Of a stretch of DNA of 64,000 nt, positions 39,812 to 53,822 are shown in pieces. The position numbers and the translations under genes are program-made. This DNA comes from a virus (lineage: Duplodnaviria; Caudoviricetes), in IMG/VR virus record IMGVR_UViG_3300014208_000026, positions 32,001-96,000 of that record. The stretch is one strand, 5' to 3'. A model generated the notes under the pieces. The model ran no database searches, had not been told where the DNA came from, and saw only the letters and a list, made by a program, of their open reading frames with translations. Every line of letters starts with the position of its first letter. Within the stretch, counting starts at the first letter, position 1.

Positions 39812-41184
39812 TGCAGAACCGAAAAGCCTATATCACCGACCGACCTGAGATGGCAGAAGACCTAGCCGCTCTGCTTGGATTGCTTCATGCCCTGTACTGG
39901 AATGGCTGGACTTCCCACTGGCAGTCGAAGGGGCCTACTTTCCTGGCAGACCATGACCTTTTTTCTCGGGTCTATACGGCCTATCCTGACGAGATCGATG
40001 CTCTGGCAGAGAAGACGGTAGGGTACTTCGGGATTGAGGCCGTGAACGTGTTCCCCCACGTTGAGCGATTCAAGGAGTGGTTGGATTCCGCCATGGAAAC
40101 GGCCGACCCCTTTGAGCGGGCTCTTGAGGGCGAGAATTCTCTGATCCTCTTTGCGGGGACTTTGCGGGAGAAGCTTGGGGACGACTTGGGTCTGTTCCCT
40201 GGTCTTGACGATTTCCTGACGGGACTGTGTGACGCCCATGAAACGAGTGTCTACCTTCTCCAGCAGAGGATCGGGGGAGATCAGGAGCCTGTCGTTACCA
40301 TCCCCGACGTGCCTGTAGAGATGGATCTTGACTCAGAGTGGCAGTCTATCCCTGAGCCTGGGGATGGCGTCCCTCCCGTTCTCGACGACAGTGCCTTGAC
40401 CGATGAGTTGGATTCCGAATGGCAGAAGGTCGGGGCCGCAGTGGCTCCCTCGGCTGAAGGTTTGTTTTTCAACAACCCCGAGCAGCGTGAGGTTCGGGAG
40501 TTTGCTCAGACAGGGGCTCCGTCGAACAACACGGGGATCGCAAAAGCCTCTCCCTTGGAAACCGGAGACGTGCAGGCTACTCCTCCGACTCCTTCCGAGA
40601 TTTTGGAGCAGCCTGGGGCGGACCAGTTCTCGACGCTCAATCGTTACTTGATTCGGACAGAGCAGCCTACGGATGAAAAGGTTACGCAGAGTCACGATGA
40701 ATTGCCGAAGCATCCCGATATGATGCAGCTTCAGGCTTCTTTGGAGCGGGATTGGGTCAAGCTGGCTGCAGCTTACCCCTCTATCATCACCGAGGCTAAC
40801 TGGGAAGAGTTTGAGGCGGGTGAAGGCATTTGGGAACGGGACGGGTTGAAGAGGGCTTGGAAGGGCTACAACGTTTCCATGACCTACGAGATTTACCAGT
40901 CTCCGGAAGAGGATGACGATGAGCCCGCAGATCCCGAGAGGGGCTTTGAGTTCAAGGACCGAAACTACGAGTACCTCGAAGATGCTTTGGACTCCAATTC
41001 TAACCGCAATTGGTTGGAGTGGTCCTCCTCACACCCTTCGAGCGGGGATTGGATTACAAGCGAGGACAGTGAGAACTACCGCACTGGGGAGAGGACTCAG
41101 TACTCCCTTTTCATCAAGCGGGGGGACAAAAACCCCCTGACCAAGTTGGAAATCGACTATATCACCGAGCAGTTCAGGTTGTAA
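39808..41184 (+). CDS. Dps/ferritin-like domain fused to an acidic linker and unknown C-terminal domain
   Basis: SHWQSKGPTFLADHDLF...EIDALAEK Dps ferroxidase pattern. Confidence 0.8.
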   Translation: MMQNRKAYITDRPEMAEDLAALLGLLHALYWNGWTSHWQSKGPTFLADHDLFSRVYTAYPDEIDALAEKTVGYFGIEAVNVFPHVERFKEWLDSAMETADPFERALEGENSLILFAGTLREKLGDDLGLFPGLDDFLTGLCDAHETSVYLLQQRIGGDQEPVVTIPDVPVEMDLDSEWQSIPEPGDGVPPVLDDSALTDELDSEWQKVGAAVAPSAEGLFFNNPEQREVREFAQTGAPSNNTGIAKASPLETGDVQATPPTPSEILEQPGADQFSTLNRYLIRTEQPTDEKVTQSHDELPKHPDMMQLQASLERDWVKLAAAYPSIITEANWEEFEAGEGIWERDGLKRAWKGYNVSMTYEIYQSPEEDDDEPADPERGFEFKDRNYEYLEDALDSNSNRNWLEWSSSHPSSGDWITSEDSENYRTGERTQYSLFIKRGDKNPLTKLEIDYITEQFRL

Positions 41185-41186
41185 CC

Positions 41187-41687
41187 ATGAGGCATACCGG
41201 AGCCCAACCTCGATTCAGTTTGCTTGTGGCACATTTCTCAGGGGCGCATGACGCCCAAGGAAATCCTGTGAAGCTGCGTAGCGTGATCACGCAGCAGCGC
41301 CTGAGCCTCAGTAATACCACTTGGGGCACAGGGCTGATCACCAGTGCTGTCGACGCCCCGTGTACAGCGACCATTACGGTTGCGGACAACGATTTCTCTA
41401 CGGGAGCCGTAGAACTGCACCTCGACGACCACCTGTTGGTTTCCGGTGTGCATTACGCTATTGGAGCCTCAGCTACTGACACGGCACACAATCTTGCAGC
41501 CGCGATTACGAACCTGCATGGATTCAATGCAACTCATTTGCTTGGGGTTGTATCAATTACGGGTCCTGTGGGTCCCGACGGCGGTACAATTGAATTGAAA
41601 GTGTTGCACCGTGGGACGATTCTCAATGTTACATACACGCCCTTCGTTGTGGGGCAACCCCGTCTCGGGCCGCTCAGCATCGCCTAG
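41187..41687 (+). CDS. putative structural protein
   Basis: Beta-rich 166 aa in the virion cluster. Confidence 0.6.
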   Translation: MRHTGAQPRFSLLVAHFSGAHDAQGNPVKLRSVITQQRLSLSNTTWGTGLITSAVDAPCTATITVADNDFSTGAVELHLDDHLLVSGVHYAIGASATDTAHNLAAAITNLHGFNATHLLGVVSITGPVGPDGGTIELKVLHRGTILNVTYTPFVVGQPRLGPLSIA

Positions 41688-41731
41688 TCCGTTTTTCATC
41701 CTTTACATTCCGTCACTGTAGGAGGAAGGCC

Positions 41732-42409
41732 ATGGCTGCGTCACCGCAGGCTATTGCAAGCAAACGTCTTTTGGTCGGTTTGGGCCCAGACGTGAAGCGT
41801 ATTCGTGTCATCAATAGCTACGGTCAAGAGACTTGGAGAACTCCGACTACCGTTGCCGATGCAGACGTGGTCATGACCAACGCCGAGGGCAAGCCCATCG
41901 TCATGCTCCAAGAGCCTGGGCGACCTAGGAAGGTTGAGGTCGAGCCGAATACCGAAGCTATTGCTGAGATGCTGCGGCTGAAGAAAGAGGAGGGGGGACG
42001 GTCCAAGATCATCAAGGCTCTGAAAGAGGACCCCGACTCCCTCAAGGGGTTGGATGCGCTCATCCTCGGTATGGCCGAAGAACAGGAATCTATCCGATTC
42101 GAACGCACGGTAGCCGAAAAGCACGGCAAGGATACGAGTACGCTGTCTATCCGCAGATCCCAGGCCCTACGTGCAATCGCTGAAACTTTGCTGAAGAAGC
42201 GGGAACTGGCTACGGCTAAGGAGATCGATCTGTCCAGTCCTACTTTCAAGGTTCTGTTGCGTTTCATCCTTGAGACTGTCCAGGAGGCCATGCGGGCGTC
42301 GGGTCTTCCAGAGGATGCAATCAACGACGTGTTCACCAAGTTCGGCAAGAAGATGAACGCTACGGAGTGGGAAGCAGATGCTAGACGGTCCATGAAGACC
42401 GCGAACTAG
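41732..42409 (+). CDS. possible terminase small subunit
   Basis: Helical 225 aa protein directly upstream of the terL cluster. Confidence 0.45.
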   Translation: MAASPQAIASKRLLVGLGPDVKRIRVINSYGQETWRTPTTVADADVVMTNAEGKPIVMLQEPGRPRKVEVEPNTEAIAEMLRLKKEEGGRSKIIKALKEDPDSLKGLDALILGMAEEQESIRFERTVAEKHGKDTSTLSIRRSQALRAIAETLLKKRELATAKEIDLSSPTFKVLLRFILETVQEAMRASGLPEDAINDVFTKFGKKMNATEWEADARRSMKTAN

Positions 42410-42521
42410 GGAGGGGGAGATAGAAAGTGCTTTTCAGAGTTAGTGCCGATTCGTCCAACTGGGAGTTGGACGTTAGCTGGGCCATGGTGGCCCGGGAATG
42501 GCCTCAAGGAGGGGCCTTATA

Positions 42522-43676
42522 ATGTTGAGAGTTACAGAGTTCGTCGAGCGAGACCTGGGGTTCAAGTTGTTTCCGGTGCAGAAGTTTTTCCTCAGAATGG
42601 CTTATGGGGAGGCTCTGGACACCAAAGAGAAGTTCAAAGTCCCGCGAAGCTGGCACCTGGATAGCTTTTATGACATGACAGAGGCCGAGTATTTGCAGTT
42701 TCTGTACAACGAAGGGCGTTGCAATGCTTCGGAGCCAGACCCGTCCTTGAGAGACGTGTTTCTGGCAGGAGGCAGGCTCGGCTCCAAGTCAACCCTGAGC
42801 GCAATCCTATCGGCCTACGAGACATATAAGCTGATTCAAAAAGATAACCCACAGAAATACTACGGAATGTTGGAAGGGACGACAATTGACGTATTGTCTG
42901 TGTCTACAGACAAAGATCAAGCCGGAATGGTTTACCAAGAGGCGTCATTACTGCTGAGCCGCAGCGGGTACACCCGTCCCTATAGGGCACTTTCGACCCT
43001 GTCGTATACGAGGTTTCAGTCCCCCGCGGACGTCAGGCGTTATGGTTTTTTCCAGGGCCAGGAGGCGGGGTCTAAAGCCACTCTCCGTATGACTTTCAGG
43101 TCATGTATCGCAAAGGGTCTTAGGGGTCCTAACTGTGCCGCCGTGATTCTTGACGAGATGGCCCATTTTTGCGACGAAGGTCAGGGCTCAGCGGAAGCTG
43201 TCTACGACGCTGTGACCCCTAGTATCGCAAATTTCACTCCCAAAGACCCGACTGATCCGAGGATTGTGATCGGTCCTCGGGAGTCTAGTCTTTTTGTTCT
43301 TTCCACCCCCCTGATTGCCGTTCAAGGGGATGAGCCTGATTTCTTCTGTAGTTCGTACTCCAGTTCTTTCAAGTCTGGCGGGTGCCTATGCCTCCAGATC
43401 CCGACTTGGGAGCTTAACCCTGCTATTCCGGTTGGGGTGTATCAGAAAGCCTTTGAACGGAACCTCGCTACTTTCGAGGCAGAGTTCGGGGCGCGGTTCG
43501 TTACGCGGGAAAAAGTCGTGACCCCCTCATCCGGGATTTCTCGAATCAAGGTGCTGGTGCTCAGGTCGGGCGTAGAGACGTGGTTGCAGCTAGAAGGGCT
43601 CCAGGAGACTGACGTCATCCCCTTGAAAATTGATGGTACTCCTTTTATCGCAATGACCCGAACCGGAGATAACTAA
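42522..43676 (+). CDS. terminase large subunit paralog 1, ATPase domain only
   Basis: LFPVQ, GGRLGSKS, ILDEMAH, IPTWELNP; no nuclease domain; ATG after AAGGAGG. Confidence 0.8.
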   Translation: MLRVTEFVERDLGFKLFPVQKFFLRMAYGEALDTKEKFKVPRSWHLDSFYDMTEAEYLQFLYNEGRCNASEPDPSLRDVFLAGGRLGSKSTLSAILSAYETYKLIQKDNPQKYYGMLEGTTIDVLSVSTDKDQAGMVYQEASLLLSRSGYTRPYRALSTLSYTRFQSPADVRRYGFFQGQEAGSKATLRMTFRSCIAKGLRGPNCAAVILDEMAHFCDEGQGSAEAVYDAVTPSIANFTPKDPTDPRIVIGPRESSLFVLSTPLIAVQGDEPDFFCSSYSSSFKSGGCLCLQIPTWELNPAIPVGVYQKAFERNLATFEAEFGARFVTREKVVTPSSGISRIKVLVLRSGVETWLQLEGLQETDVIPLKIDGTPFIAMTRTGDN

Positions 43677-43677
43677 A

Positions 43678-44628
43678 ATGCATGGAATCATCGAGTTCGC
43701 CGAGAAGAGCCTGAATATCCGTCTCTATCCTGTCCAGAAAGTCGTCCTCAAGACTATCTATGGAGAGCCTTTGGACGACAGGGAAGCCTTTAAGATCCCG
43801 ACCGATTGGAGACAAGAAAAGTATCTCTCCATGACAGAGGCAGGATACCTTCAGTATCTATATGAAGAGGGACGAAGCAACGTGAGGGAGCCTAATCCCG
43901 CACTCAAAAAATCCGTTCTCGTAGCCGGACGTCGGGTAGGTAAGAGTTTTCTGGAAACTATCATCATGAGGCACGAGATCCAGAAGTTGGTTTCTCCGGA
44001 TTTTGGAGATCCTCATGCTAGATATGGTTTGTCGCTGAATGACAAGATCAATGTTATATCGGTTACTCCAGGGAGTGATCTAGCCCGCTACATCAAGACA
44101 GAGTTCTGTGCTCTTGTTCCGGGAGTGCCTACTTACGGGGAGTCTGGGACAAGATTCCGGACTTCTGCTCTGAACAGTTCTCTGCGCTCCCCTGCGGAGT
44201 ATAACGTGCGGGCTATGTTCCTGTCTTCTTACTCTCCAGAAGTTTTGAGAGGTTTGAATGCCTATGTTTTGATTTTGGATGAGGCAGGGCATATGACGGA
44301 CAGGCAGTTGTGCGATATCACAAACGCTTGTGGTGCCTATGTGTTTTTTCCGAAAAAAGAGGGCAAGCCTAGCGGGCCTCTGGAGTCCAGAGTTGTCACT
44401 ATCTCCTCTCCTGGAAGGCCCTTTTACGATAAACGCAAAACACTATTCCAGCAGATATATGAGATAGATTTCAGAATGGGGACCAGTACGTGTTTCCAGA
44501 TTCCGACGTGGGAAATGAACCCCACTATCCCTGCCAAAGAGTATTCTAAGCACTATGACAAAGATCCTCTTATTTTTGAAATAGAGTTCGGGGCTAGGTT
44601 CTTGGAGTACAAGGAGACTCTTGTATAA
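43678..44628 (+). CDS. terminase large subunit paralog 2, ATPase domain only
   Basis: LYPVQ, GRRVGKS, ILDEAGH, IPTWEMNP; ends at EFGARF. Confidence 0.8.
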   Translation: MHGIIEFAEKSLNIRLYPVQKVVLKTIYGEPLDDREAFKIPTDWRQEKYLSMTEAGYLQYLYEEGRSNVREPNPALKKSVLVAGRRVGKSFLETIIMRHEIQKLVSPDFGDPHARYGLSLNDKINVISVTPGSDLARYIKTEFCALVPGVPTYGESGTRFRTSALNSSLRSPAEYNVRAMFLSSYSPEVLRGLNAYVLILDEAGHMTDRQLCDITNACGAYVFFPKKEGKPSGPLESRVVTISSPGRPFYDKRKTLFQQIYEIDFRMGTSTCFQIPTWEMNPTIPAKEYSKHYDKDPLIFEIEFGARFLEYKETLV

Positions 44629-47600
44629 TGGCTGGTTTAGGTGACATAGCCCTCGACATTGGGCGCAAGGCTTCCACGGGGAAGGGTAGCGGCAAGATTG
44701 CCAACATCATCGACTTCGTCGAGTCTCCCTGGGGGTTGAAGGCCAGACTGTATCCTGTCCAACGGGTGATCCTCAAAGCCCACTACGGGATCCCCCTGGA
44801 TGACCGGAACAAGATTGTCAATCTCACGGATTGGCGCCGCGAAGATTCGCGCATGATGACTGAGGCTGACTATCTTAAATTTCTATTTGATGCGGGTAGA
44901 TGTAATATTAGAGAAGTAGATCATGAACGTAGAGAGATGATACTCTCGGTCGGACGTCGCTCGGGCAAGTGCAATTTGGGTGATAGTTTAATATTAACTA
45001 ATAAAGGTGTAACAAGAATAGATGCTCTAGGCGATCCTAACGGACCGGAGTTTCAGCCTCTCGAAATCGAGGTTGCCCAGGAAGCAGATAGAAAGGCGAT
45101 TTCGAAGTTTTTCTACAACGGGGGTGTGAAGCCCACCCGTACTTTGACCACTCGCTGCGGTTACAGACTTGGGGGGACGGACAACCATCGTATCAAGGTT
45201 CTGACCCAAGACGGCATAGTGGATTGGAAGTACCTTGCGGATATCCAGGTCGGGGATACCGTTTGCATTCACCGTAAGACGGACCTGTGGGCTTCCGAAT
45301 ACGTTGACTGCACCCCCTACTGGACAAGCGGGGGGTTGAAAAAACTCACTTTTCCGACTTTGTTGGACGAGGATTGGGGTTTCTTGTTGGGTCTTCTCGC
45401 GGGGGACGGAACCTGGGTTCACAAGACCGGCATAGAATTGACCGTGGCTGATATTGAAACCAAAATTCACGCTCGTGCCCTGTGGGATCAGCTTTTTGGC
45501 AGTCACAAAGAGCAGCAGGTTAAGGAATCTCCGATAACCAGTAGAGTGCAGTTTTTCAGTGTCGCTATGAGGCAGTTCCTTCACAACCTAGGCTGGGAGC
45601 TTGGCATTGCTCGGGACGCCAAGATGGTGCCCTGGTCCATCATGAGGTCCCCTAAGTCTGTTGTCCAAGCTTTCCTGCGGGGTCTGTTTGAGACGGACGG
45701 CGGGGTTGAATCTGGCGGTAAGGTCGTTTCATTCAGCACTGCGAGCGGCCGACTGGCCCGAGAAGTGCAAACTCTCCTTCTCAATCTGGGTATTGTCAGC
45801 CGTATCAAGCCGAAACCTATCAAGGGCAAGATTTACTGGATCTTGTGCGTCAGAGGGCTTCGGAGTCGGATTGCTTTTGCTGAACTCGTAGGATTCGACT
45901 CGCACAAGAAAATGGATCCCCTGCTGGCGTCGATTGAGGCGGCAGGGAAAGAAGGGAGCAATGCAGAAGGGATCCCGTACCAAAGACCCTGGTTGCGGAA
46001 ACTGTTGGAGTCTGTTCCTGCCCTTCAGGGCATTCCGGGGCACAAGCAGGAGTGGAGCCGGTCCAAGCTTCGGGCGGTATTAGGCAACACTCTCAAGCCC
46101 AGCACCGCTGAAGAAGTAACATATCCTATGTTGTTGAATGCCCTTCCCGTTGCTCGCTCCCTGGGAGCAGACCTTAGAATCATTGCCCATTTCGAGGAAC
46201 TTCAGCGCCTCGACTATTTCTTCGACCCCATCGAGACCATCGAGGAGGGGGAACATCCTGTCTACGACCTGAACGTGCCCGACGGGGAGTCTTTCGTAGC
46301 CAACGGGATGACAAACCACAACACGATGATCTCGGCTCTCATTTCCGTCTACGAGATGTACAAGCTGATCCAGAAGGGCAATCCGCAACACTACTATGCT
46401 CTTCCGCAGACCAACAACATTCAGATCATCTCGGTCGCTACGGACAAAGACCAAGCAGGAATTCTCTACAACGAGGCTTCCGGCTATTTCCGTTCGTGTG
46501 ATTTCTTCCAACCGTATACCGCCAACAACACCCTGTCCTATGCTCGTTTCCAGTCGCCCGAGGATATCCAGTTGTACGGTCCCTACGCTGAGGACCCTAC
46601 GGCCAAGGCTACTCTCCGCATGACCTTCCGGTCCTGCGTTGCGAAGGGGCTCCGTGGTGCTGGTAACCTTGTGGTCATCCTCGACGAGGTAGCCCACTTT
46701 ACGGATTCGGGGCAGTCCTCTGCTTCCGCCGTGTATGACGCTGTGCAGCCGTCTACCGCTACGTTCTTCCCGAAGGACCCGAAGGACCCTACGACCCCTC
46801 TCGGTCCTGGTGAGGGCCGTACCATTCTGATTTCTTCCCCGCTCGGTCGAGAAGGCATGTTCTACAAGCTCTTCGAGATCGGGTTCAAGGGCGGAGAGGC
46901 CGCCGAGAACATGCTTTGTGTTCAAGCCCCCACCTGGGAGGTAAACCCGACCGTTCCGGCCAGTGAGTTCAAGAAGCATTTTGCCAAGGACGCCAAGGTC
47001 TTCTTCACGGAGTTTGGGGCGGACTTCTCGGATCGTACTCGTGGTTGGATTGAACGCGAGAAAGACCTGACGGACTGTATTAAGCCGGATGCGAAACCGA
47101 CGTACAAGGCCGCTCCCAGACAGCCTCACTTCTTGGGTCTGGACGTCGGGTTGGTGAACGACGGTACCGCTATTGCCATCGGACACAATGAAGGCGACCT
47201 GATCGTCCTGGATATCATGGACTACATTCGAGCTGGAGAGGGCAAGTACGTTCACCACGAACGGTTGGAGTTTGAGGACGTGGCCCAGTGGGTTTACGAG
47301 TGGACTCGCCGTTTCCATATCAAAGAGGGCATTTTTGATAAGCACCTTGCAGACGTGATGGAGCAGTACCTGACTAAGAAGGGTATCGGGACGCTGGTTT
47401 CGCAAAGGTTCACTCCGCAGGAACGATCAGATGTGTACCAGTCGTTCAAGGATATGATGTACGACCGGAGGCTGGTCCTCTATGACGCTCCGATTGTTTC
47501 CGGAGAAATCCACTGTGCGTACATCAAGGAACTGTTGGAGTTGCAGGCAGAGACGCGCACCAAGTATATCACCGAGGTCAGAGCCCCGAATATCGAAGGC

Positions 47601-47834
47601 AAGCACGACGATATGTCGGACGCCTTGACCCGTATGGTCTGGTTGGCTTCTCAGGCGGCCTGTAAGACCCATCACATTGCTGTGACCAGCGGGGCTACCA
47701 GCAGGGACTACGTTCGTGACCCTATGTTGTCCTCATCGAGCAAAGCCGTTATGCGCCGTCACCGGATGACCCGTTCAGGGAGTTCTCCTGAGCGAATGAT
47801 TCCGAGGGGCGGGCGGCTTGGAAGGCGGTTCTAA
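44628..47834 (+). CDS. terL: terminase large subunit, full length, with intein
   Basis: LYPVQ, spliced GRRSGKT, ILDEVAH, nuclease LGLDVG...HDDMSDA. Confidence 0.92.
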   Translation: MAGLGDIALDIGRKASTGKGSGKIANIIDFVESPWGLKARLYPVQRVILKAHYGIPLDDRNKIVNLTDWRREDSRMMTEADYLKFLFDAGRCNIREVDHERREMILSVGRRSGKCNLGDSLILTNKGVTRIDALGDPNGPEFQPLEIEVAQEADRKAISKFFYNGGVKPTRTLTTRCGYRLGGTDNHRIKVLTQDGIVDWKYLADIQVGDTVCIHRKTDLWASEYVDCTPYWTSGGLKKLTFPTLLDEDWGFLLGLLAGDGTWVHKTGIELTVADIETKIHARALWDQLFGSHKEQQVKESPITSRVQFFSVAMRQFLHNLGWELGIARDAKMVPWSIMRSPKSVVQAFLRGLFETDGGVESGGKVVSFSTASGRLAREVQTLLLNLGIVSRIKPKPIKGKIYWILCVRGLRSRIAFAELVGFDSHKKMDPLLASIEAAGKEGSNAEGIPYQRPWLRKLLESVPALQGIPGHKQEWSRSKLRAVLGNTLKPSTAEEVTYPMLLNALPVARSLGADLRIIAHFEELQRLDYFFDPIETIEEGEHPVYDLNVPDGESFVANGMTNHNTMISALISVYEMYKLIQKGNPQHYYALPQTNNIQIISVATDKDQAGILYNEASGYFRSCDFFQPYTANNTLSYARFQSPEDIQLYGPYAEDPTAKATLRMTFRSCVAKGLRGAGNLVVILDEVAHFTDSGQSSASAVYDAVQPSTATFFPKDPKDPTTPLGPGEGRTILISSPLGREGMFYKLFEIGFKGGEAAENMLCVQAPTWEVNPTVPASEFKKHFAKDAKVFFTEFGADFSDRTRGWIEREKDLTDCIKPDAKPTYKAAPRQPHFLGLDVGLVNDGTAIAIGHNEGDLIVLDIMDYIRAGEGKYVHHERLEFEDVAQWVYEWTRRFHIKEGIFDKHLADVMEQYLTKKGIGTLVSQRFTPQERSDVYQSFKDMMYDRRLVLYDAPIVSGEIHCAYIKELLELQAETRTKYITEVRAPNIEGKHDDMSDALTRMVWLASQAACKTHHIAVTSGATSRDYVRDPMLSSSSKAVMRRHRMTRSGSSPERMIPRGGRLGRRF
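44970..46322 (+). mobile_element. LAGLIDADG intein in TerL Walker A (451 aa)
   Basis: Starts CNLGDSLIL, has LLGLLAGDG and FLRGLFETDG, ends NHN before Thr. Confidence 0.92.
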
Positions 47835-47836
47835 CC

Positions 47837-48085
47837 ATGAGCGCACTTTCCCCAAAGAGTCCTATCAGGGCGGATCACCGAGTGATCTGGAAAGTTGTGA
47901 AGCTGACAGGCGGGAACGGGGCTCTGCGAATTGACAGTGAGATGACTCGCATCTCGAACGTCTTTCGAAGGCTGGGTGGGTCCTGGACGGGTTTCTTCAA
48001 AGGGAGCATCGACGATGTGACTCTGTTGAAGAAGGTGGTGCGGTTCGCTATGAAAAAGGGATACGTGACGAAGAGTTCTGAGTAA
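47837..48085 (+). CDS. small basic hypothetical protein
   Basis: 82 aa ORF in operon. Confidence 0.55.
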   Translation: MSALSPKSPIRADHRVIWKVVKLTGGNGALRIDSEMTRISNVFRRLGGSWTGFFKGSIDDVTLLKKVVRFAMKKGYVTKSSE

Positions 48086-48103
48086 GAAGGTAGAGTAGAG
48101 ACT

Positions 48104-48430
48104 ATGAGTAAGATGCGGGCCCGTCTATCTTCCATGGAAAACGATAGAGAGGTGCAAAGCCATGTAGCCGAGGCCGAAAGTGCCTTGGCGAAGGCAATGC
48201 AAGTTGCCAGGGCTGCATCGGGAGAGGCTGGTTCTGCTCAAAGGACACGTTCGGTTGCCGTGATTCGGGATATCGAGAGGGCGTTACATGCCCTGTCTGG
48301 AATCCGGAGAATCGGGGGGATTGATCTTACCGATGAGGATTTGATGGGTTCGGAGGAGAGAAAGAAGGTACGGGAGGCACGAGCGGTTGCCCGTGACGAA
48401 AAGACTCAACGTGCTCGAAGGAGTGCTTAA
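48104..48430 (+). CDS. hypothetical protein
   Basis: 108 aa ORF in operon. Confidence 0.6.
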   Translation: MSKMRARLSSMENDREVQSHVAEAESALAKAMQVARAASGEAGSAQRTRSVAVIRDIERALHALSGIRRIGGIDLTDEDLMGSEERKKVREARAVARDEKTQRARRSA

Positions 48431-48432
48431 CT

Positions 48433-50304
48433 ATGGCTGTCCAAAAACCGCGTACACGTCGAGTGTCTATCGTTGGGAATCGAGGGACCCCCCGGAGGGT
48501 CGTGGCAGGGGCCATGCGGTCGAACGGGTTGGAGGGGGCTGTTGAAGTCTCTAAAGTAAAGCCTCGTCCGGCAACCCTGGGCCGTCCCGCCGTCAGGACG
48601 GGAAAGCCAGGGAAGATTGCCTCTGGCTCGATGCGGTTGGGTACTTCCGCTTTCGGCATGCCCGGGATTGGGAACTCTACGATGGGGCAGGGAGGTAACT
48701 TCTACTCCCCTGAGTTGTCGACTGACTTTTTGGAATTGCCGCAGAGCAGGGACGAAGAACGAAACTACTATCGGTTCTTCTACAAGCACGATCCTTTCGT
48801 CGGTCAGGCTATTGACCTCCAGACAGATATTCCGCTCTCGAAGATTCGATTGGGTAAGCCTGAGATTCCAGAGTTTGATTTGGACTATTTGAACAGCCCC
48901 GAAGGAAAGGAATTCTTGAAGGGGGCGGACAAACTGGCCAAGCAGTCCCAGCGGTTCTGCAAGAAGTGGAACCGTAGGATTCACTTGCTGAAACAACTTC
49001 TGGATATCTCCCATGATTTGAACCTTCTCGGTGAGGTTTTCGTTTTCATAGAGGACGACAATCCAGAGATGCCTGACGACGTGAGATACAACACGGTCCT
49101 GGCGATTGATCCCGAAGGGGGGGAGCCAGTAGAGCAGAAGCATGAGCGCGAAGACGCGGATGAGCGGGCCTACGAGTGGCTCCGGACGCATTACAAGGGA
49201 TGGACCGCCATGCGGGTTCTGCCGCCCGAGCAGATCAGTATGAAGTCTTTCCCCTTCACTGACGAGAGGCTCATCCAGCTCATTATTGATAGTAAGACCA
49301 AGGATCTCGTGAACCAAGCTATGGCGGGGGATCCCGACTCCCAGCGGATCATGGAAAGTCTGCCTGAGGATGTGGTTAATGCTGTGCTAGAAGGGGTCAA
49401 CATTCCTTTGAACACGGACCCTGAAGCAGGATCTTTCGTACATTATATATCTCGTCGTAAGTCTCAATATGAAGAGAGAGGCACTTCTGTATTATCAAGA
49501 TGTATAAGAACACTTGTTTTTATGGACAAATGCCGTCAGGCAAATACTTCGATTGCATCTCGTCATATGACACCTATGCGTATTGTTTGGGTTGAAGATG
49601 GCGATGCGGCTGATGTTGAAGAATTGCGTGAACAAGTTGATATGGCGCTTCAGGACCCCGACTATTCGATCATCACGAACTATCAGGTCAACTGGGAGGA
49701 GATGGGGGCGGAGCAGCGGCTTCTGGATCTAACTAGTGAGTACGAGCGAGCAGACCGTATGTTGTATGCCGGTCTGGGAGTTACGGAGTCGCTGTTGTCC
49801 GGTGAGTCCTCCTACTCAGGGGATAGGATCAACCTGGAGGTGATCAACACCCGTTTCATGCTCTTCCGCGAGTTGATGCAAGAGTTTGTCGAAGAGCACC
49901 TCTACGCTCCGATGTGTCGCCGGATGGGTTACGTGGTCACGGACGAGTGGGGGGACGAGATTCCGCTGGTTCCTGGACTGTCCTTTACTCGACTGGCTCT
50001 GCGGGACAATGCGGACACGTTCGACTCCATGCTGAACCTCTACCAGAAGGGCAGTTTGGATATTGACGTGATCCTGGAACTCTTGAATATCGATCCCGAG
50101 ACGACCCGCGAGAAGCTGAAGCGGGATCTGTTCACTCTCCAGGACGCCACCTTCAACGAACTTCTGCGTAGCATCTACAACGACGCGGCTCAGAAGCTCA
50201 ACGACAATTCCAACATGATCGACCTCATGGCGAAGAAGATGGGGATCGACGGGCTGGTGTACAAGAAGGCACAGGAAGAAGGCGACGGTCGGTTCGGCGG
50301 CTAG
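48433..50304 (+). CDS. probable portal protein
   Basis: 623 aa downstream of terL; YRFFYKHDPFVGQAID, RGTSVLSRC and LYAGLGV patterns. Confidence 0.75.
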   Translation: MAVQKPRTRRVSIVGNRGTPRRVVAGAMRSNGLEGAVEVSKVKPRPATLGRPAVRTGKPGKIASGSMRLGTSAFGMPGIGNSTMGQGGNFYSPELSTDFLELPQSRDEERNYYRFFYKHDPFVGQAIDLQTDIPLSKIRLGKPEIPEFDLDYLNSPEGKEFLKGADKLAKQSQRFCKKWNRRIHLLKQLLDISHDLNLLGEVFVFIEDDNPEMPDDVRYNTVLAIDPEGGEPVEQKHEREDADERAYEWLRTHYKGWTAMRVLPPEQISMKSFPFTDERLIQLIIDSKTKDLVNQAMAGDPDSQRIMESLPEDVVNAVLEGVNIPLNTDPEAGSFVHYISRRKSQYEERGTSVLSRCIRTLVFMDKCRQANTSIASRHMTPMRIVWVEDGDAADVEELREQVDMALQDPDYSIITNYQVNWEEMGAEQRLLDLTSEYERADRMLYAGLGVTESLLSGESSYSGDRINLEVINTRFMLFRELMQEFVEEHLYAPMCRRMGYVVTDEWGDEIPLVPGLSFTRLALRDNADTFDSMLNLYQKGSLDIDVILELLNIDPETTREKLKRDLFTLQDATFNELLRSIYNDAAQKLNDNSNMIDLMAKKMGIDGLVYKKAQEEGDGRFGG

Positions 50305-52787: not shown

Positions 52788-53822
52788 ATGCCTGCTTCAC
52801 CTGAAAAAAGATGGACTGAAGAACAAGACAGCACCCTGCGTGAAGGTTGGGCTGGTGGCGTTTCCGCAGAGGATCTCGCGTTGAAGTTGTTAAGAACGGA
52901 AACATCTATTCGCGGACGAGTTGCGATACTGGGAGTGCGGAGGAGTCCGGGATATATTTCTTCTATTCGTTCAAGTCTGAGTGTTGGTAAGCGTTTTAGT
53001 TGGACGGAAGAAGAGGAGAATATGCTACGTGTCTTTTACGAGGAGCAAGGGCTGTCTTACGAGGAGGTGGCTGTTAAATTACCTGTTGCTAAGACCTATA
53101 CTGCAATCCGGATGAAAGTACGGAAACTAGGGCTTCACCACACTAAAGAACAGTTTCTAGCAGTTTGTAGTCGTATGTCTATGGGGGACAGAAATGGCAT
53201 GTACGGAAAACCCGGGATTAATCTAGGGAAATCTCCTTCGGAAGAAACACGGAATAAGATAAGAGAGAACAAGCTGGAGGGTTTTGCTTCTGGGAGGCTA
53301 CATGGCATGGTTGGCCCTCTTAATCCTGCATTTGGTAAACCCAGCTCTATGCGCGGTAAACATCTTCCGGATTCTGCAAAGCAGACTCTTAGCCAGAAAG
53401 CCCGTGTCCGGTGGTTGGATAGGTCTGAGCAATATAAGTCAGACCATTTGTTAAAGATGCGTAAAGGCTGGATAACCTGGGCTATGAGAACGGAGGAAAA
53501 CAGAACTTGGATTGAGAAACTGGTAGCAATATGGCTGCAAGAAGAGGCTCTGGCATTTACGGAGCAGACACAGGTCGGTTTCTATATTGTGGATTTCCTA
53601 GTCGGTAATAAGGTGATCGAAACGCAAGGCGACTACTGGCATGCCAATCCTTCTGTTTACAGTCAGTTGGACTCCACGCAGAAATCAAATGTACGGAGAG
53701 ACAAGGCCAAAGCAACTTACCTGAAAAATCGAGGTTTCGGATTTCTGTCTTTGTGGGAGTTAGACCTGAAAAAGAATCCCGAGGGCTGTCGAAATCTACT
53801 ACGGGAGTTCTTAGCCTCATGA
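52788..53822 (+). mobile_element. free-standing homing-endonuclease-like ORF (Myb/HTH repeats, NUMOD3, Vsr/EDxHD-like nuclease)
   Basis: WTEEQD and WTEEEE repeats, GMYGK...SEETRNKI, IVDF...IETQGDYWH. Confidence 0.8.

What the first reader, a model, noticed from the sequence alone, without database searches (positions are those of the whole stretch)
42522..47834. Three tandem terminase large subunit paralogs, two of them ATPase-only
Seen: all three share L(F/Y)PVQ, a MT(E)A(E/G/D)YLxxL...GRxN segment, Walker A, ILDExxH and (I/A)PTWExNP. Paralogs 1 and 2 end shortly after EFGARF, where the full copy continues into its nuclease domain. Both have intact frames and sit in the operon, so they do not look decayed. 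Established: packaging motors are homopentamers of one TerL, and Avs STAND defence proteins sense TerL. Inference: a heteromeric motor, packaging regulators, or decoys that titrate terminase-sensing immunity.
Basis: partly seen in the sequence, partly recalled or inferred. Interest (0 to 1): 0.8.

Follow-up and report, generated by a model that had tools for sequence, protein, structure and literature searches.

The report
Two ATPase-only terminase copies before terL
Just upstream of its DNA-packaging motor gene (which is itself interrupted by a self-splicing intein), this huge groundwater phage carries two intact extra genes that encode only the motor's ATP-burning half; such short copies prove to be an old, widespread, fast-evolving accessory family whose role is still unknown.

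Summary
Three co-oriented, tightly packed genes share a TerL ATPase domain: P1 (42522-43676), P2 (43678-44628) and P3 (44628-47834). Only P3 has the nuclease domain.

P1 and P2 are not decay products:
- Each has its own Shine-Dalgarno site and keeps the Walker A Lys, Walker B Asp-Glu and the trans arginine finger.
- Each keeps 84-87% of the family's most conserved columns.
- P1 models as a complete TerL ATPase domain (Z 22.8 to P74-26 TerL).

They are not recent copies of P3; an AU test rejects that. They fall in an old clade of short copies. Other huge phages carry such copies, either wedged between the TerS-position gene and terL or standing alone. About 60 short clusters appear among the 150 best profile hits. 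One orthologous pair shows dN/dS of at most 0.28, with dN three times that of the neighbouring TerL.

Function is unresolved. I favour a modulator of the phage's own terminase, at about 0.4. A simple Avs decoy is weakened because isolated TerL ATPase domains activate Avs2 and Upx.

The kind is known (T4 vs.8), and this scan has noted it before on other DNA.

The parts
41732..42409 (+). Conserved 225-aa gene in the TerS position. In relatives without short copies its homolog ends within -10 to +22 nt of the terL start.
   Evidence: jackhmmer over about 100 loci found homologs in 74 loci, directly upstream of TerL. There are no Pfam or PHROG hits, and only faint TerS-like leads in the Atlas at scores of 0.79 or less.
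42522..43676 (+). P1: stand-alone TerL ATPase domain (384 aa from 42522; 392 aa if read from 42498) with a C-terminal tail.
   Evidence: Family ATPase HMM 2e-110, with no nuclease match. AAGGAGG lies 9 nt before the ATG at 42522. The AF2 model has pLDDT 90 and aligns over residues 1-329 to the P74-26 TerL ATPase domain 4ZNL at Z 22.8, rmsd 3.1, 233 residues aligned. The Walker A Lys, Walker B DE and the LRG arginine are all present.
43500..43673 (+). P1 tail, 58 aa after EFGARF. It is predicted as four short beta strands at low confidence.
   Evidence: No match to the nuclease HMM. pLDDT is about 50-56 with four strands. It aligns partly with the tails of P1-type relatives P0131, P0138, P0146 and P0157. 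It also shows a weak two-piece likeness to the P3 intein.
43678..44628 (+). P2: stand-alone TerL ATPase domain (316 aa). It starts 1 nt after the P1 stop.
   Evidence: Family ATPase HMM 2e-57, with no nuclease match. GGAG lies upstream of its ATG. The AF2 model has pLDDT 70, and its best PDB matches are the P74-26 and T4 gp17 ATPase domains. It has GRRVGKS, ILDE and LRG.
44628..47834 (+). P3: full-length TerL precursor (1068 aa). Its start overlaps the P2 stop (TAATG), and AAGGAG lies upstream.
   Evidence: ATPase HMM 5e-182 in two pieces, and nuclease HMM 4e-103. PHROG large-terminase families match. It is the only nuclease-domain match in the 257-kb record.
44970..46322 (+). Intein with a LAGLIDADG homing endonuclease, inserted in the Walker A of P3 (GRRSGK|C...HN|T).
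   Evidence: Pfam Intein_splicing 1e-11 and LAGLIDADG_3 6e-21. Intein-free homologs read GRRSGKT straight across the site. The same site is occupied in L014 and L015.
47046..47831 (+). Nuclease domain and basic C-terminal tail of P3. Both are absent from P1 and P2.
   Evidence: The nuclease HMM matches ORF residues 817-1073. See also the alignment with full-length homologs.
47837..48430 (+). Two small conserved genes (82 and 108 aa) between terL and the portal gene.
   Evidence: jackhmmer finds homologs in 48-57 loci at the same place.
48433..50304 (+). Portal protein.
   Evidence: PHROG 16240, portal, 6e-31. It is 59% identical to the L006 neighbour.

Best explanation
SHOWN. P1 and P2 are expressed-looking, selection-maintained proteins, each consisting of one complete TerL ATPase domain. 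They keep the adenine/Q motif, Walker A, Walker B, C-motif and the trans-acting arginine finger. They lack the nuclease domain, the basic C-terminal tail and the roughly 25-residue N-terminal leader of the real TerL. They belong to an old clade of such short copies. In several huge phages these copies sit between the TerS-position gene and terL. P1 and P2 are translationally coupled to the intein-bearing terL.

INFERRED (my preferred mechanism). They work on the phage's own packaging machinery as accessory ATPase subunits. They are made together with TerL. They bind ATP and DNA as isolated TerL ATPase domains do. They engage TerL's ATPase ring, or a pre-assembly form of it, through the same ATPase-to-ATPase interface that uses the arginine finger. 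Because they have no nuclease and no portal-side tail, they would tune ring composition, nuclease dosage, or initiation and termination, rather than translocate DNA themselves.

The two copies come from two different subclades, which may mean two non-redundant roles.
For: Genes look real:
- Each ORF has its own SD and tight coupling, with a 1-nt spacer and a TAATG overlap.
- The sequence is identical in a second study.

Fold and active site are kept:
- The P1 model has pLDDT 90 and matches the P74-26 TerL ATPase domain at Z 22.8. P2 matches the same fold.
- The LRG arginine aligns with P74-26 R139, and both copies keep it.
- P1 and P2 keep 87% and 84% of the 38 columns that are at least 90% conserved in full TerLs, against 35% and 20% agreement with the consensus at variable columns.

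The copies are old and maintained:
- AU tests reject P1+P2+P3 as one clade (p 0.0035) and P1+P3 (p 0.038).
- Both copies sit in a 14-member clade of short copies only, SH-aLRT 94, under a mixture model. FastTree gives a 46-member short clade.
- For the L006/L100 ortholog pair, dN is 0.50 with dS saturated, so dN/dS is at most 0.28.

The position in the packaging module recurs:
- The same slot is occupied in L006, L014, L026 and L100/L101.
- The TerS-position gene is retained upstream.

Across 63 short representatives, 70% keep the trans arginine finger and 84-89% keep the Walker residues. That fits a protein which still works in an ATPase oligomer.
Against: - No binding evidence of any kind exists.
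- Most relatives do without a short copy: 78 of 80 metagenome loci, and a 98%-complete 424-kb relative has a single TerL. The function is therefore dispensable for the motor.
- Some short copies stand alone, far from any terL and among small opposite-strand ORFs.
- Short copies evolve about three times faster than the adjacent TerL.
- 10-30% of the family has lost a catalytic residue.

The last four features are more typical of accessory or conflict genes than of motor subunits. From general knowledge of ring ATPases, subunits lacking the DNA-translocating C-domain tend to poison a ring rather than help it.
Confidence: 0.4

Rival explanations
1. Conflict gene. The short copies act in phage-host or phage-phage conflict rather than in the phage's own packaging. 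They could be an anti-defence protein or mimic aimed at terminase-directed immunity. They could also be poison subunits that enter the terminase ring of a co-infecting relative.
For: - Distribution is patchy (2 of 80 loci; none in a 98%-complete relative).
- The short state arose several times on the tree (at least 4 changes; a second short clade).
- dN is three times that of TerL.
- Catalytic residues are lost in 10-30% of members.
- Two diverged copies occur in one genome.
- Stand-alone copies lie among small ORFs on the other strand.
- Evans et al. 2026 raise an anti-defence role as one possibility for the non-terminase Avs2 activators, T4 vs.8 among them.
Against: - The plain decoy version is contradicted in spirit. 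Isolated TerL ATPase domains activate EcAvs2 more than 1000-fold and are sufficient for Upx, and vs.8 is toxic with EcAvs2 (PMC13601566).
- In this window the copies lie inside the late packaging operon and keep every catalytic residue and the arginine finger, which a pure mimic would not need.
- The host and its defence systems are unknown.
Confidence: 0.3
2. Independent DNA-dependent ATPase. The short copies have been recruited to another DNA transaction, such as concatemer processing, recombination or host DNA handling. They sit next to terL only because they arose there by partial tandem duplication.
For: - The ATPase active site and Q motif are complete.
- Stand-alone copies elsewhere in genomes show that adjacency is not required.
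- Some members have acquired extra domains: a roughly 200-aa N-terminal extension in L008/P0129, and C-terminal tails in P1-type copies and in P0140.
Against: - The same slot recurs with overlapping start and stop codons in at least five independent loci.
- No helicase-like or nuclease partner is consistently adjacent.
- Retention of the trans arginine finger points to a terminase-like ring.
Confidence: 0.17
3. Non-functional leftovers of partial duplication or of recombination driven by homing endonucleases around an intein-bearing terL.
For: - The genome is rich in homing endonucleases: the intein here, and an endonuclease-like gene at 52788-53822.
- One stand-alone short copy lies next to a LAGLIDADG_2 gene.
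- The L006/L100 lineage also has a nuclease-like fragment ORF after terL.
- The P1 tail shows a weak two-piece likeness to the intein.
Against: - The frames are intact at 32-46% identity to the full copy, and each has its own SD.
- 84-87% of conserved columns are kept.
- dN/dS is at most 0.28 across saturated dS in an ortholog pair.
- They sit in an old clade of short copies, and AU rejects recent duplication.
- Truncation falls exactly at the domain boundary in dozens of clusters.
- Intein presence is not linked to short copies: L006, L100 and L026 have none, while L015 has an intein and no short copy.
Confidence: 0.05

Closest known systems
T4 vs.8 (stand-alone TerL-ATPase-like protein of T4-like phages; Evans et al. 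2026, PMC13601566)
   Same: It is a separate phage gene encoding only a terminase-type ATPase domain, with Walker A and B conserved, alongside a normal full-length TerL. It is restricted to particular phage lineages, and its function is unknown.
   Different: vs.8 derives from the T4-type (Terminase_6N) TerL. From general knowledge, it is not adjacent to gene 17. Here the copies derive from the PF27249-type TerL of uncultured huge phages, sit inside the packaging operon directly before terL, and occur twice. Sequence homology to vs.8 was not tested. An independent origin is inferred from the different TerL families.
Isolated ATPase domain of Thermus phage P74-26 TerL (PDB 4ZNI/4ZNL)
   Same: P1 superposes on the whole crystallised domain (Z 22.8). 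The short-copy profile matches it by sequence (5e-05). The short copies end where that construct ends, and they keep the arginine aligned to R139.
   Different: The P74-26 domain is a laboratory truncation of a full TerL, whereas here the truncation is the natural gene. The family also has an extra insert of about 65 aa between the Q motif and Walker A.
TerL inteins of actinobacteriophages (Kelley et al. 2016, PMC5050341, not read here; Gosselin et al. preprint, 10.1101/2025.01.02.630785)
   Same: P3 carries a canonical in-frame LAGLIDADG intein. The preprint reports TerL as a recurrent intein host.
   Different: The phage lineage is different. Whether the insertion site matches those of actinobacteriophage TerL inteins was not checked. 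The intein is incidental to the short copies, since no association was found in the loci examined.
Earlier notes of this scan on nuclease-less TerL ATPase paralogs in other genomes (KPP10/PAK_P3-type phages, Rak2-like jumbo phages, a P1-like phage, a phage-plasmid)
   Same: They describe the same kind of object: a conserved ATPase-only copy near or apart from terL, with function unknown.
   Different: These are unchecked AI notes on other TerL families. My one spot check, 121Q gp3 against gp4, found no similarity by BLAST or PHROG. In this window both copies keep a full catalytic set, unlike the 'dead' copies described in two of those notes.

Membership tests
TerL ATPase domain (ASCE P-loop, Pfam PF27249 MJ0330_N type) | Walker A with its lysine and Ser/Thr | tested here: met
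   P1 reads GRLGSKS, P2 reads GRRVGKS, and P3 reads GRRSGK|T after splicing. The Ser before the Lys in P1 also occurs in 12 of 76 full TerLs.
TerL ATPase domain (ASCE P-loop, Pfam PF27249 MJ0330_N type) | Walker B hhhhDE with the catalytic Glu | tested here: met
   ILDE is present in all three. The D and E columns are invariant in full TerLs.
TerL ATPase domain (ASCE P-loop, Pfam PF27249 MJ0330_N type) | Trans-acting arginine finger about 11 residues before the Walker B Glu (P74-26 R139) | tested here: met
   The LRG motif aligns to P74-26 LRG/R139. It is present in P1, P2 and P3. It is kept in 44 of 63 short representatives and in 76 of 76 full ones.
TerL ATPase domain (ASCE P-loop, Pfam PF27249 MJ0330_N type) | Terminase ATPase fold | tested here: met
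   P1 model: Z 22.8 to 4ZNL, 21.7 to HK97 TerL and 19 to T4 gp17, against about 12 for unrelated helicases. For P2, Foldseek gives 8e-08 to 4ZNL. PF27249 is precomputed on both proteins.
Full-length large terminase (TerL) | C-terminal RNase H-like nuclease domain | tested here: not met
   P1 and P2 have no match to the family's nuclease HMM, even with filters off for the P1 tail. P3 matches at 4e-103. P1 and P2 are therefore not terminases in the full sense.
Class 1 intein with LAGLIDADG homing endonuclease (P3 insert) | Cys1, block B TxxH, terminal HN followed by Cys/Ser/Thr, two LAGLIDADG motifs, and an insertion that interrupts a conserved host motif | tested here: met
   The insert starts CNLGD, contains TDNH, and ends HN|T. 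Both LAGLIDADG-type motifs are present. Pfam hits are. Homologs are continuous across the site. Splicing itself is not testable here.
Stand-alone TerL-ATPase paralogs (T4 vs.8 kind) | A separate gene with only a terminase-type ATPase domain and conserved Walker motifs, coexisting with a full TerL | tested here: met
   The kind is defined from PMC13601566.
Stand-alone TerL-ATPase paralogs (T4 vs.8 kind) | Sequence homology to vs.8 itself | not tested
   No vs.8 sequence was fetched. The TerL families differ (Terminase_6N against PF27249), so common descent of the short forms is unlikely.
Small terminase (TerS) | Small oligomeric DNA-recognition protein encoded directly before terL | tested here: not met
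   P1 and P2 occupy the slot but are ATPase domains. The family's usual upstream gene (225-aa type) is retained before them.
Decoy or inhibitor of terminase-sensing immunity (Avs1-3, Upx) | Binds the sensor without activating it | not testable with these tools
   The host and its sensors are unknown. Published data show that isolated ATPase domains activate EcAvs2 and Upx.

The most novel reading that the evidence does not exclude
The packaging motor of some huge phages is not a homo-oligomer of one TerL. Nuclease-less ATPase paralogs, two distinct types in this phage, would co-assemble with TerL through the arginine-finger interface. The resulting ring would have fewer nuclease domains and specialised subunits.
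Probability: 0.2. Interest if true: 0.8.

Novelty: new variant of a known kind. Interest (0 to 1): 0.5.

Why it matters
Tailed-phage packaging motors are treated as rings of a single TerL, and TerL is a main target of bacterial pattern-recognition immunity.

This work shows that ATPase-only TerL copies are a large, old and actively maintained family in uncultured huge phages. About 60 clusters at 50% identity appear among the best 150 profile hits. They sit in a fixed slot before terL in several lineages and stand alone in others.

Together with T4 vs.8, this points to repeated, independent evolution of stand-alone terminase ATPase domains. Something useful is evidently being done by half a terminase.

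Whichever role is right, it is a gap in the standard picture of packaging. The role could be a motor modulator, a conflict protein, or an extra trigger or shield for Avs/Upx-type sensors.

Annotation pipelines will also mislabel these genes as terL. That matters for TerL-based phylogenies of huge phages.

Tried and rejected
1. Complex prediction of the L006 short copy with the ATPase domain of its neighbouring intein-free TerL gave a score of 0.13 against a mark of 0.32. That is no verdict, and the controls were not run.
2. Expression: no RNA holder was listed. Only two groundwater DNA runs hold the stretch.
3. dN/dS on P1 and P2 themselves was impossible. The only other cluster member (P0273) and the second-study contigs are identical. 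An ortholog pair from another lineage was used instead.
4. P1 tail as an intein remnant:
   - A two-piece collinear likeness to the window's own intein beat 200 of 200 shuffles (z 4.75).
   - The design was post hoc, the intein HMM gives only E 0.16, and the tail aligns partly with tails of other P1-type short copies.
   - I leave it as unexplained, not as evidence.
5. P1 tail as a nuclease remnant: no HMM hit even with filters off.
6. Short copies as a TerS replacement: rejected, because the usual upstream gene is retained.
7. Link between intein and short copies: no association in the loci seen.
8. The P-loop DNA of P1 and P2 is only 19/45 and 24/45 identical to the intein's home site, so they are not obvious targets for the endonuclease.
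9. Searches for related loci with P1 or P2 alone found almost nothing.
10. A first IQ-TREE run timed out.
11. L008's 104-kb record (20% complete) holds only the short form, so it cannot show whether that phage has a full TerL.
12. Spot check of an earlier scan note: 121Q gp3 shows no BLAST or PHROG similarity to its TerL.
13. Literature searches for duplicated, truncated or ATPase-only terminases found nothing specific beyond the Avs2/Upx paper.

Full report
WHAT IS THERE

The window is part of a 257-kb IMG/VR virus record with an estimated completeness of 49%. The DNA is held by two groundwater metagenome runs from different studies.

Genes 41.7-50.3 kb form a packaging module on the + strand:
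- a conserved 225-aa gene;
- three TerL-like genes;
- two small conserved genes;
- the portal gene.

The three TerL-like genes are P1 (42522-43676), P2 (43678-44628) and P3 (44628-47834). P1's likely start at 42522 has AAGGAGG 9 nt upstream. P2 starts 1 nt after P1's stop, with GGAG upstream. P3's ATG overlaps P2's stop (TAATG), with AAGGAG upstream. A contig from the second study covers the P1/P2 junction without a single difference.

Pairwise identities are:
- P1/P3: 46%, plus 40% over the N-terminal piece;
- P2/P3: 32%, plus 43%;
- P1/P2: 35%.

I built HMMs from 57 full-length homologs. All three genes match the ATPase domain, at 2e-110, 2e-57 and 5e-182. Only P3 matches the nuclease domain, at 4e-103. 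That is the only nuclease-domain match in the 257-kb record.

P3 reads GRRSGK, then C...HN, then T. The insert has the splicing domain and a LAGLIDADG endonuclease. The same site is occupied in two relatives.

THE SHORT COPIES ARE COMPLETE, LIVE-LOOKING ATPASE DOMAINS

Structure:
- P1's AlphaFold model has pLDDT 90.3.
- Its residues 1-329 superpose on the whole crystallised ATPase domain of P74-26 TerL at Z 22.8. It scores 21.7 to HK97 TerL and 19 to T4 gp17, against about 12 for unrelated helicases.
- P2's shallower model (pLDDT 70) finds the same structures first.

Both copies end a few residues after E[FY]GAxF, where the P74-26 ATPase construct ends. The same profile alignment equates the family's LRG arginine with P74-26 R139, which lies 11 residues before the Walker B glutamate. 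R139 is the trans-acting arginine finger by established knowledge of that enzyme, and PDB entry 4ZNJ is its R139A mutant.

P1 and P2 keep the PVQ motif, the Walker A lysine and serine, Walker B DE, the S-[ST]-P motif and this arginine. P1's unusual GSKS is not disqualifying, because Ser at that position occurs in 12 of 76 full TerLs.

Of the 38 alignment columns that are at least 90% conserved among full TerLs, P1 keeps 87% and P2 keeps 84%. At variable columns they agree with the consensus at only 35% and 20%.

THEY ARE OLD, NOT LOCAL DUPLICATES

P1's best database matches, apart from itself, are full-length TerLs at 42-48% identity, no closer than its own neighbour P3.

Trees:
- A FastTree of 139 ATPase domains puts 46 short proteins, including P1 and P2, in one clade (0.85). 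That clade is sister to the clade holding P3. Further short groups lie elsewhere.
- Under a site-heterogeneous model with 50 sequences the picture is less tidy. P1 and P2 still fall in a 14-member clade of short copies only (SH-aLRT 94), together with the short copies of L006, L007 and L008. The short state needs several changes on the tree.
- AU tests reject P1+P2+P3 as one clade (p 0.0035) and P1+P3 (p 0.038).

The branches are long, so exact relationships are unsure. The six short copies aligned first all read IPTWE[ML]N. In 63 short representatives Ile precedes PTWE in 44, against 10 of 76 full TerLs, which mostly read APTWEV. This argues against pure long-branch attraction.

In FastTree, P1 groups with L014's short copy and four tailed proteins, while P2 groups with the L006 type. 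This phage therefore seems to hold two different subtypes.

THE FAMILY IS LARGE

A profile of six short copies was searched against 1.84 billion representatives and found 2840 proteins. Among the best 150, about 60 are 290-460 aa with the match spanning the whole protein. Thirty-six of these end within 25 residues of the E[FY]G motif.

I checked complete ORFs in loci.
- Short copy directly upstream of terL: L006 (319 + 641 aa), L100/L101 (314 + 641), L014 (328 + 1110 with intein), L026 (324 + 618) and L093.
- Stand-alone short copies: L007, L102/L103 (on a 208-kb contig among opposite-strand small ORFs), L104, and L105 beside a LAGLIDADG_2 gene.

Most relatives have none. That includes 78 of 80 metagenome loci and a 98%-complete 424-kb relative with a single TerL. 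No other locus has two short copies.

In relatives without short copies, the 225-aa-type gene abuts terL. The short copies are therefore insertions between that TerS-position gene and terL, not replacements of it.

SELECTION

For the L006/L100 pair, synonymous sites are saturated. dN is 0.50 for the short copy, 0.16 for TerL and 0.10 for the portal, so dN/dS is at most about 0.28. This is purifying selection, but the short copy evolves three times faster than its neighbour.

Conservation of key residues, short copies (63 representatives) against full TerLs:

| Residue | Short copies | Full TerLs |
|---|---|---|
| Walker A Lys | 89% | 97% |
| Walker A Ser/Thr | 83% | 100% |
| Walker B Asp | 84% | 100% |
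| Walker B Glu | 89% | 100% |
| Arginine finger | 70% | 100% |

Catalysis is therefore usually but not always retained in the family. In this window it is fully retained.

WHAT THEY DO

Nothing here measures function. The choice is between three readings.

(a) Modulators or subunits of the phage's own terminase. In favour: the fixed slot, translational coupling, full catalytic set and retained trans arginine finger. Against: dispensability in most relatives, fast evolution and stand-alone copies.

(b) Conflict proteins. The features that count against (a) count for this reading. However, the simple decoy version meets published counter-evidence. Isolated TerL ATPase domains activate EcAvs2 more than 1000-fold and suffice for Upx. 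T4's own stand-alone TerL-ATPase paralog vs.8 is toxic with EcAvs2 (PMC13601566). Those authors raise an anti-defence role as one possibility and leave the function open.

(c) An unrelated DNA-dependent ATPase role.

I put these at about 0.4, 0.3 and 0.17, with non-functional leftovers at about 0.05.

COMPARISON AND NOVELTY

The closest described thing is T4 vs.8: the same kind of object, from a different TerL family and a different genomic place, with function unknown. This scan has also noted ATPase-only TerL paralogs in several other genomes. Those are unchecked notes, and one spot check of mine did not reproduce the claimed likeness.

The intein in TerL is a known kind. TerL is a reported recurrent intein host in actinobacteriophages.

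New here:
- a separate, large short-copy family derived from the PF27249-type TerL of uncultured huge phages;
- its recurrent slot inside the packaging operon;
- a phage with two subtypes in tandem, both catalytically complete.

I class it as a new variant of a known kind. Interest is moderate: a real gap in packaging biology, but already glimpsed elsewhere and not directly testable in an uncultured phage.

Noticed in passing
L006:13140-13586 and L100:5558-5965: In the L006/L100 lineage a 135-148-aa ORF downstream of terL matches the first half of the TerL nuclease domain (nuclease HMM 4e-29), including the GxDxG-type start. That phage therefore has an ATPase-only copy before terL and a nuclease-like fragment after it. 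The two orthologs are only 31% identical.
   Followed up: partly
window 43500-43673 (P1 tail); proteins P0131, P0138, P0146, P0157: P1-type short copies often carry a 35-58-aa C-terminal tail. Four relatives share the motif G.[DN]G[IV].V.[KR]...GW.V[TV]TG. P1's tail aligns only partly with it, and it also resembles two collinear pieces of the window's own intein (z 4.75 against shuffles). Its origin and role are unexplained.
   Followed up: partly
L105:137-1087 and 1490-2503: A stand-alone short TerL-ATPase copy lies directly downstream of a free-standing LAGLIDADG_2 homing endonuclease gene.
   Followed up: no
L008:3965-5488 (protein P0129 is its database twin): This short copy has an extra N-terminal region of about 200 aa with no family match. 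No full TerL is present in the 104-kb partial record.
   Followed up: partly
proteins P0139, P0162, P0170, P0174: Some full TerLs of this family are 1400-1700 aa and match the ATPase profile in three stretches. That suggests two inteins at different sites: near Walker A, and near profile positions 154-180 or 225-231.
   Followed up: no
window 41187-42409: Two genes (166 and 225 aa) are conserved upstream of terL across 61-74 related loci, and the 225-aa type abuts terL. There are no Pfam or PHROG hits. The Atlas gives only faint leads to TerS-like families (DUF1804, T5 small terminase, Mu gp27; scores 0.79 or less). It may be the family's unrecognised small terminase.
   Followed up: partly
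window 52788-53822: A 344-aa protein combines a GcrA-like HTH with a DUF559/MTES_1575-type endonuclease fold, and PHROG calls it a homing endonuclease.
   Followed up: no
window 41000-49000 (runs X1, X2): The same phage sequence appears as identical contig pieces in groundwater metagenomes of two studies dated 2018 and 2022.
   Followed up: partly
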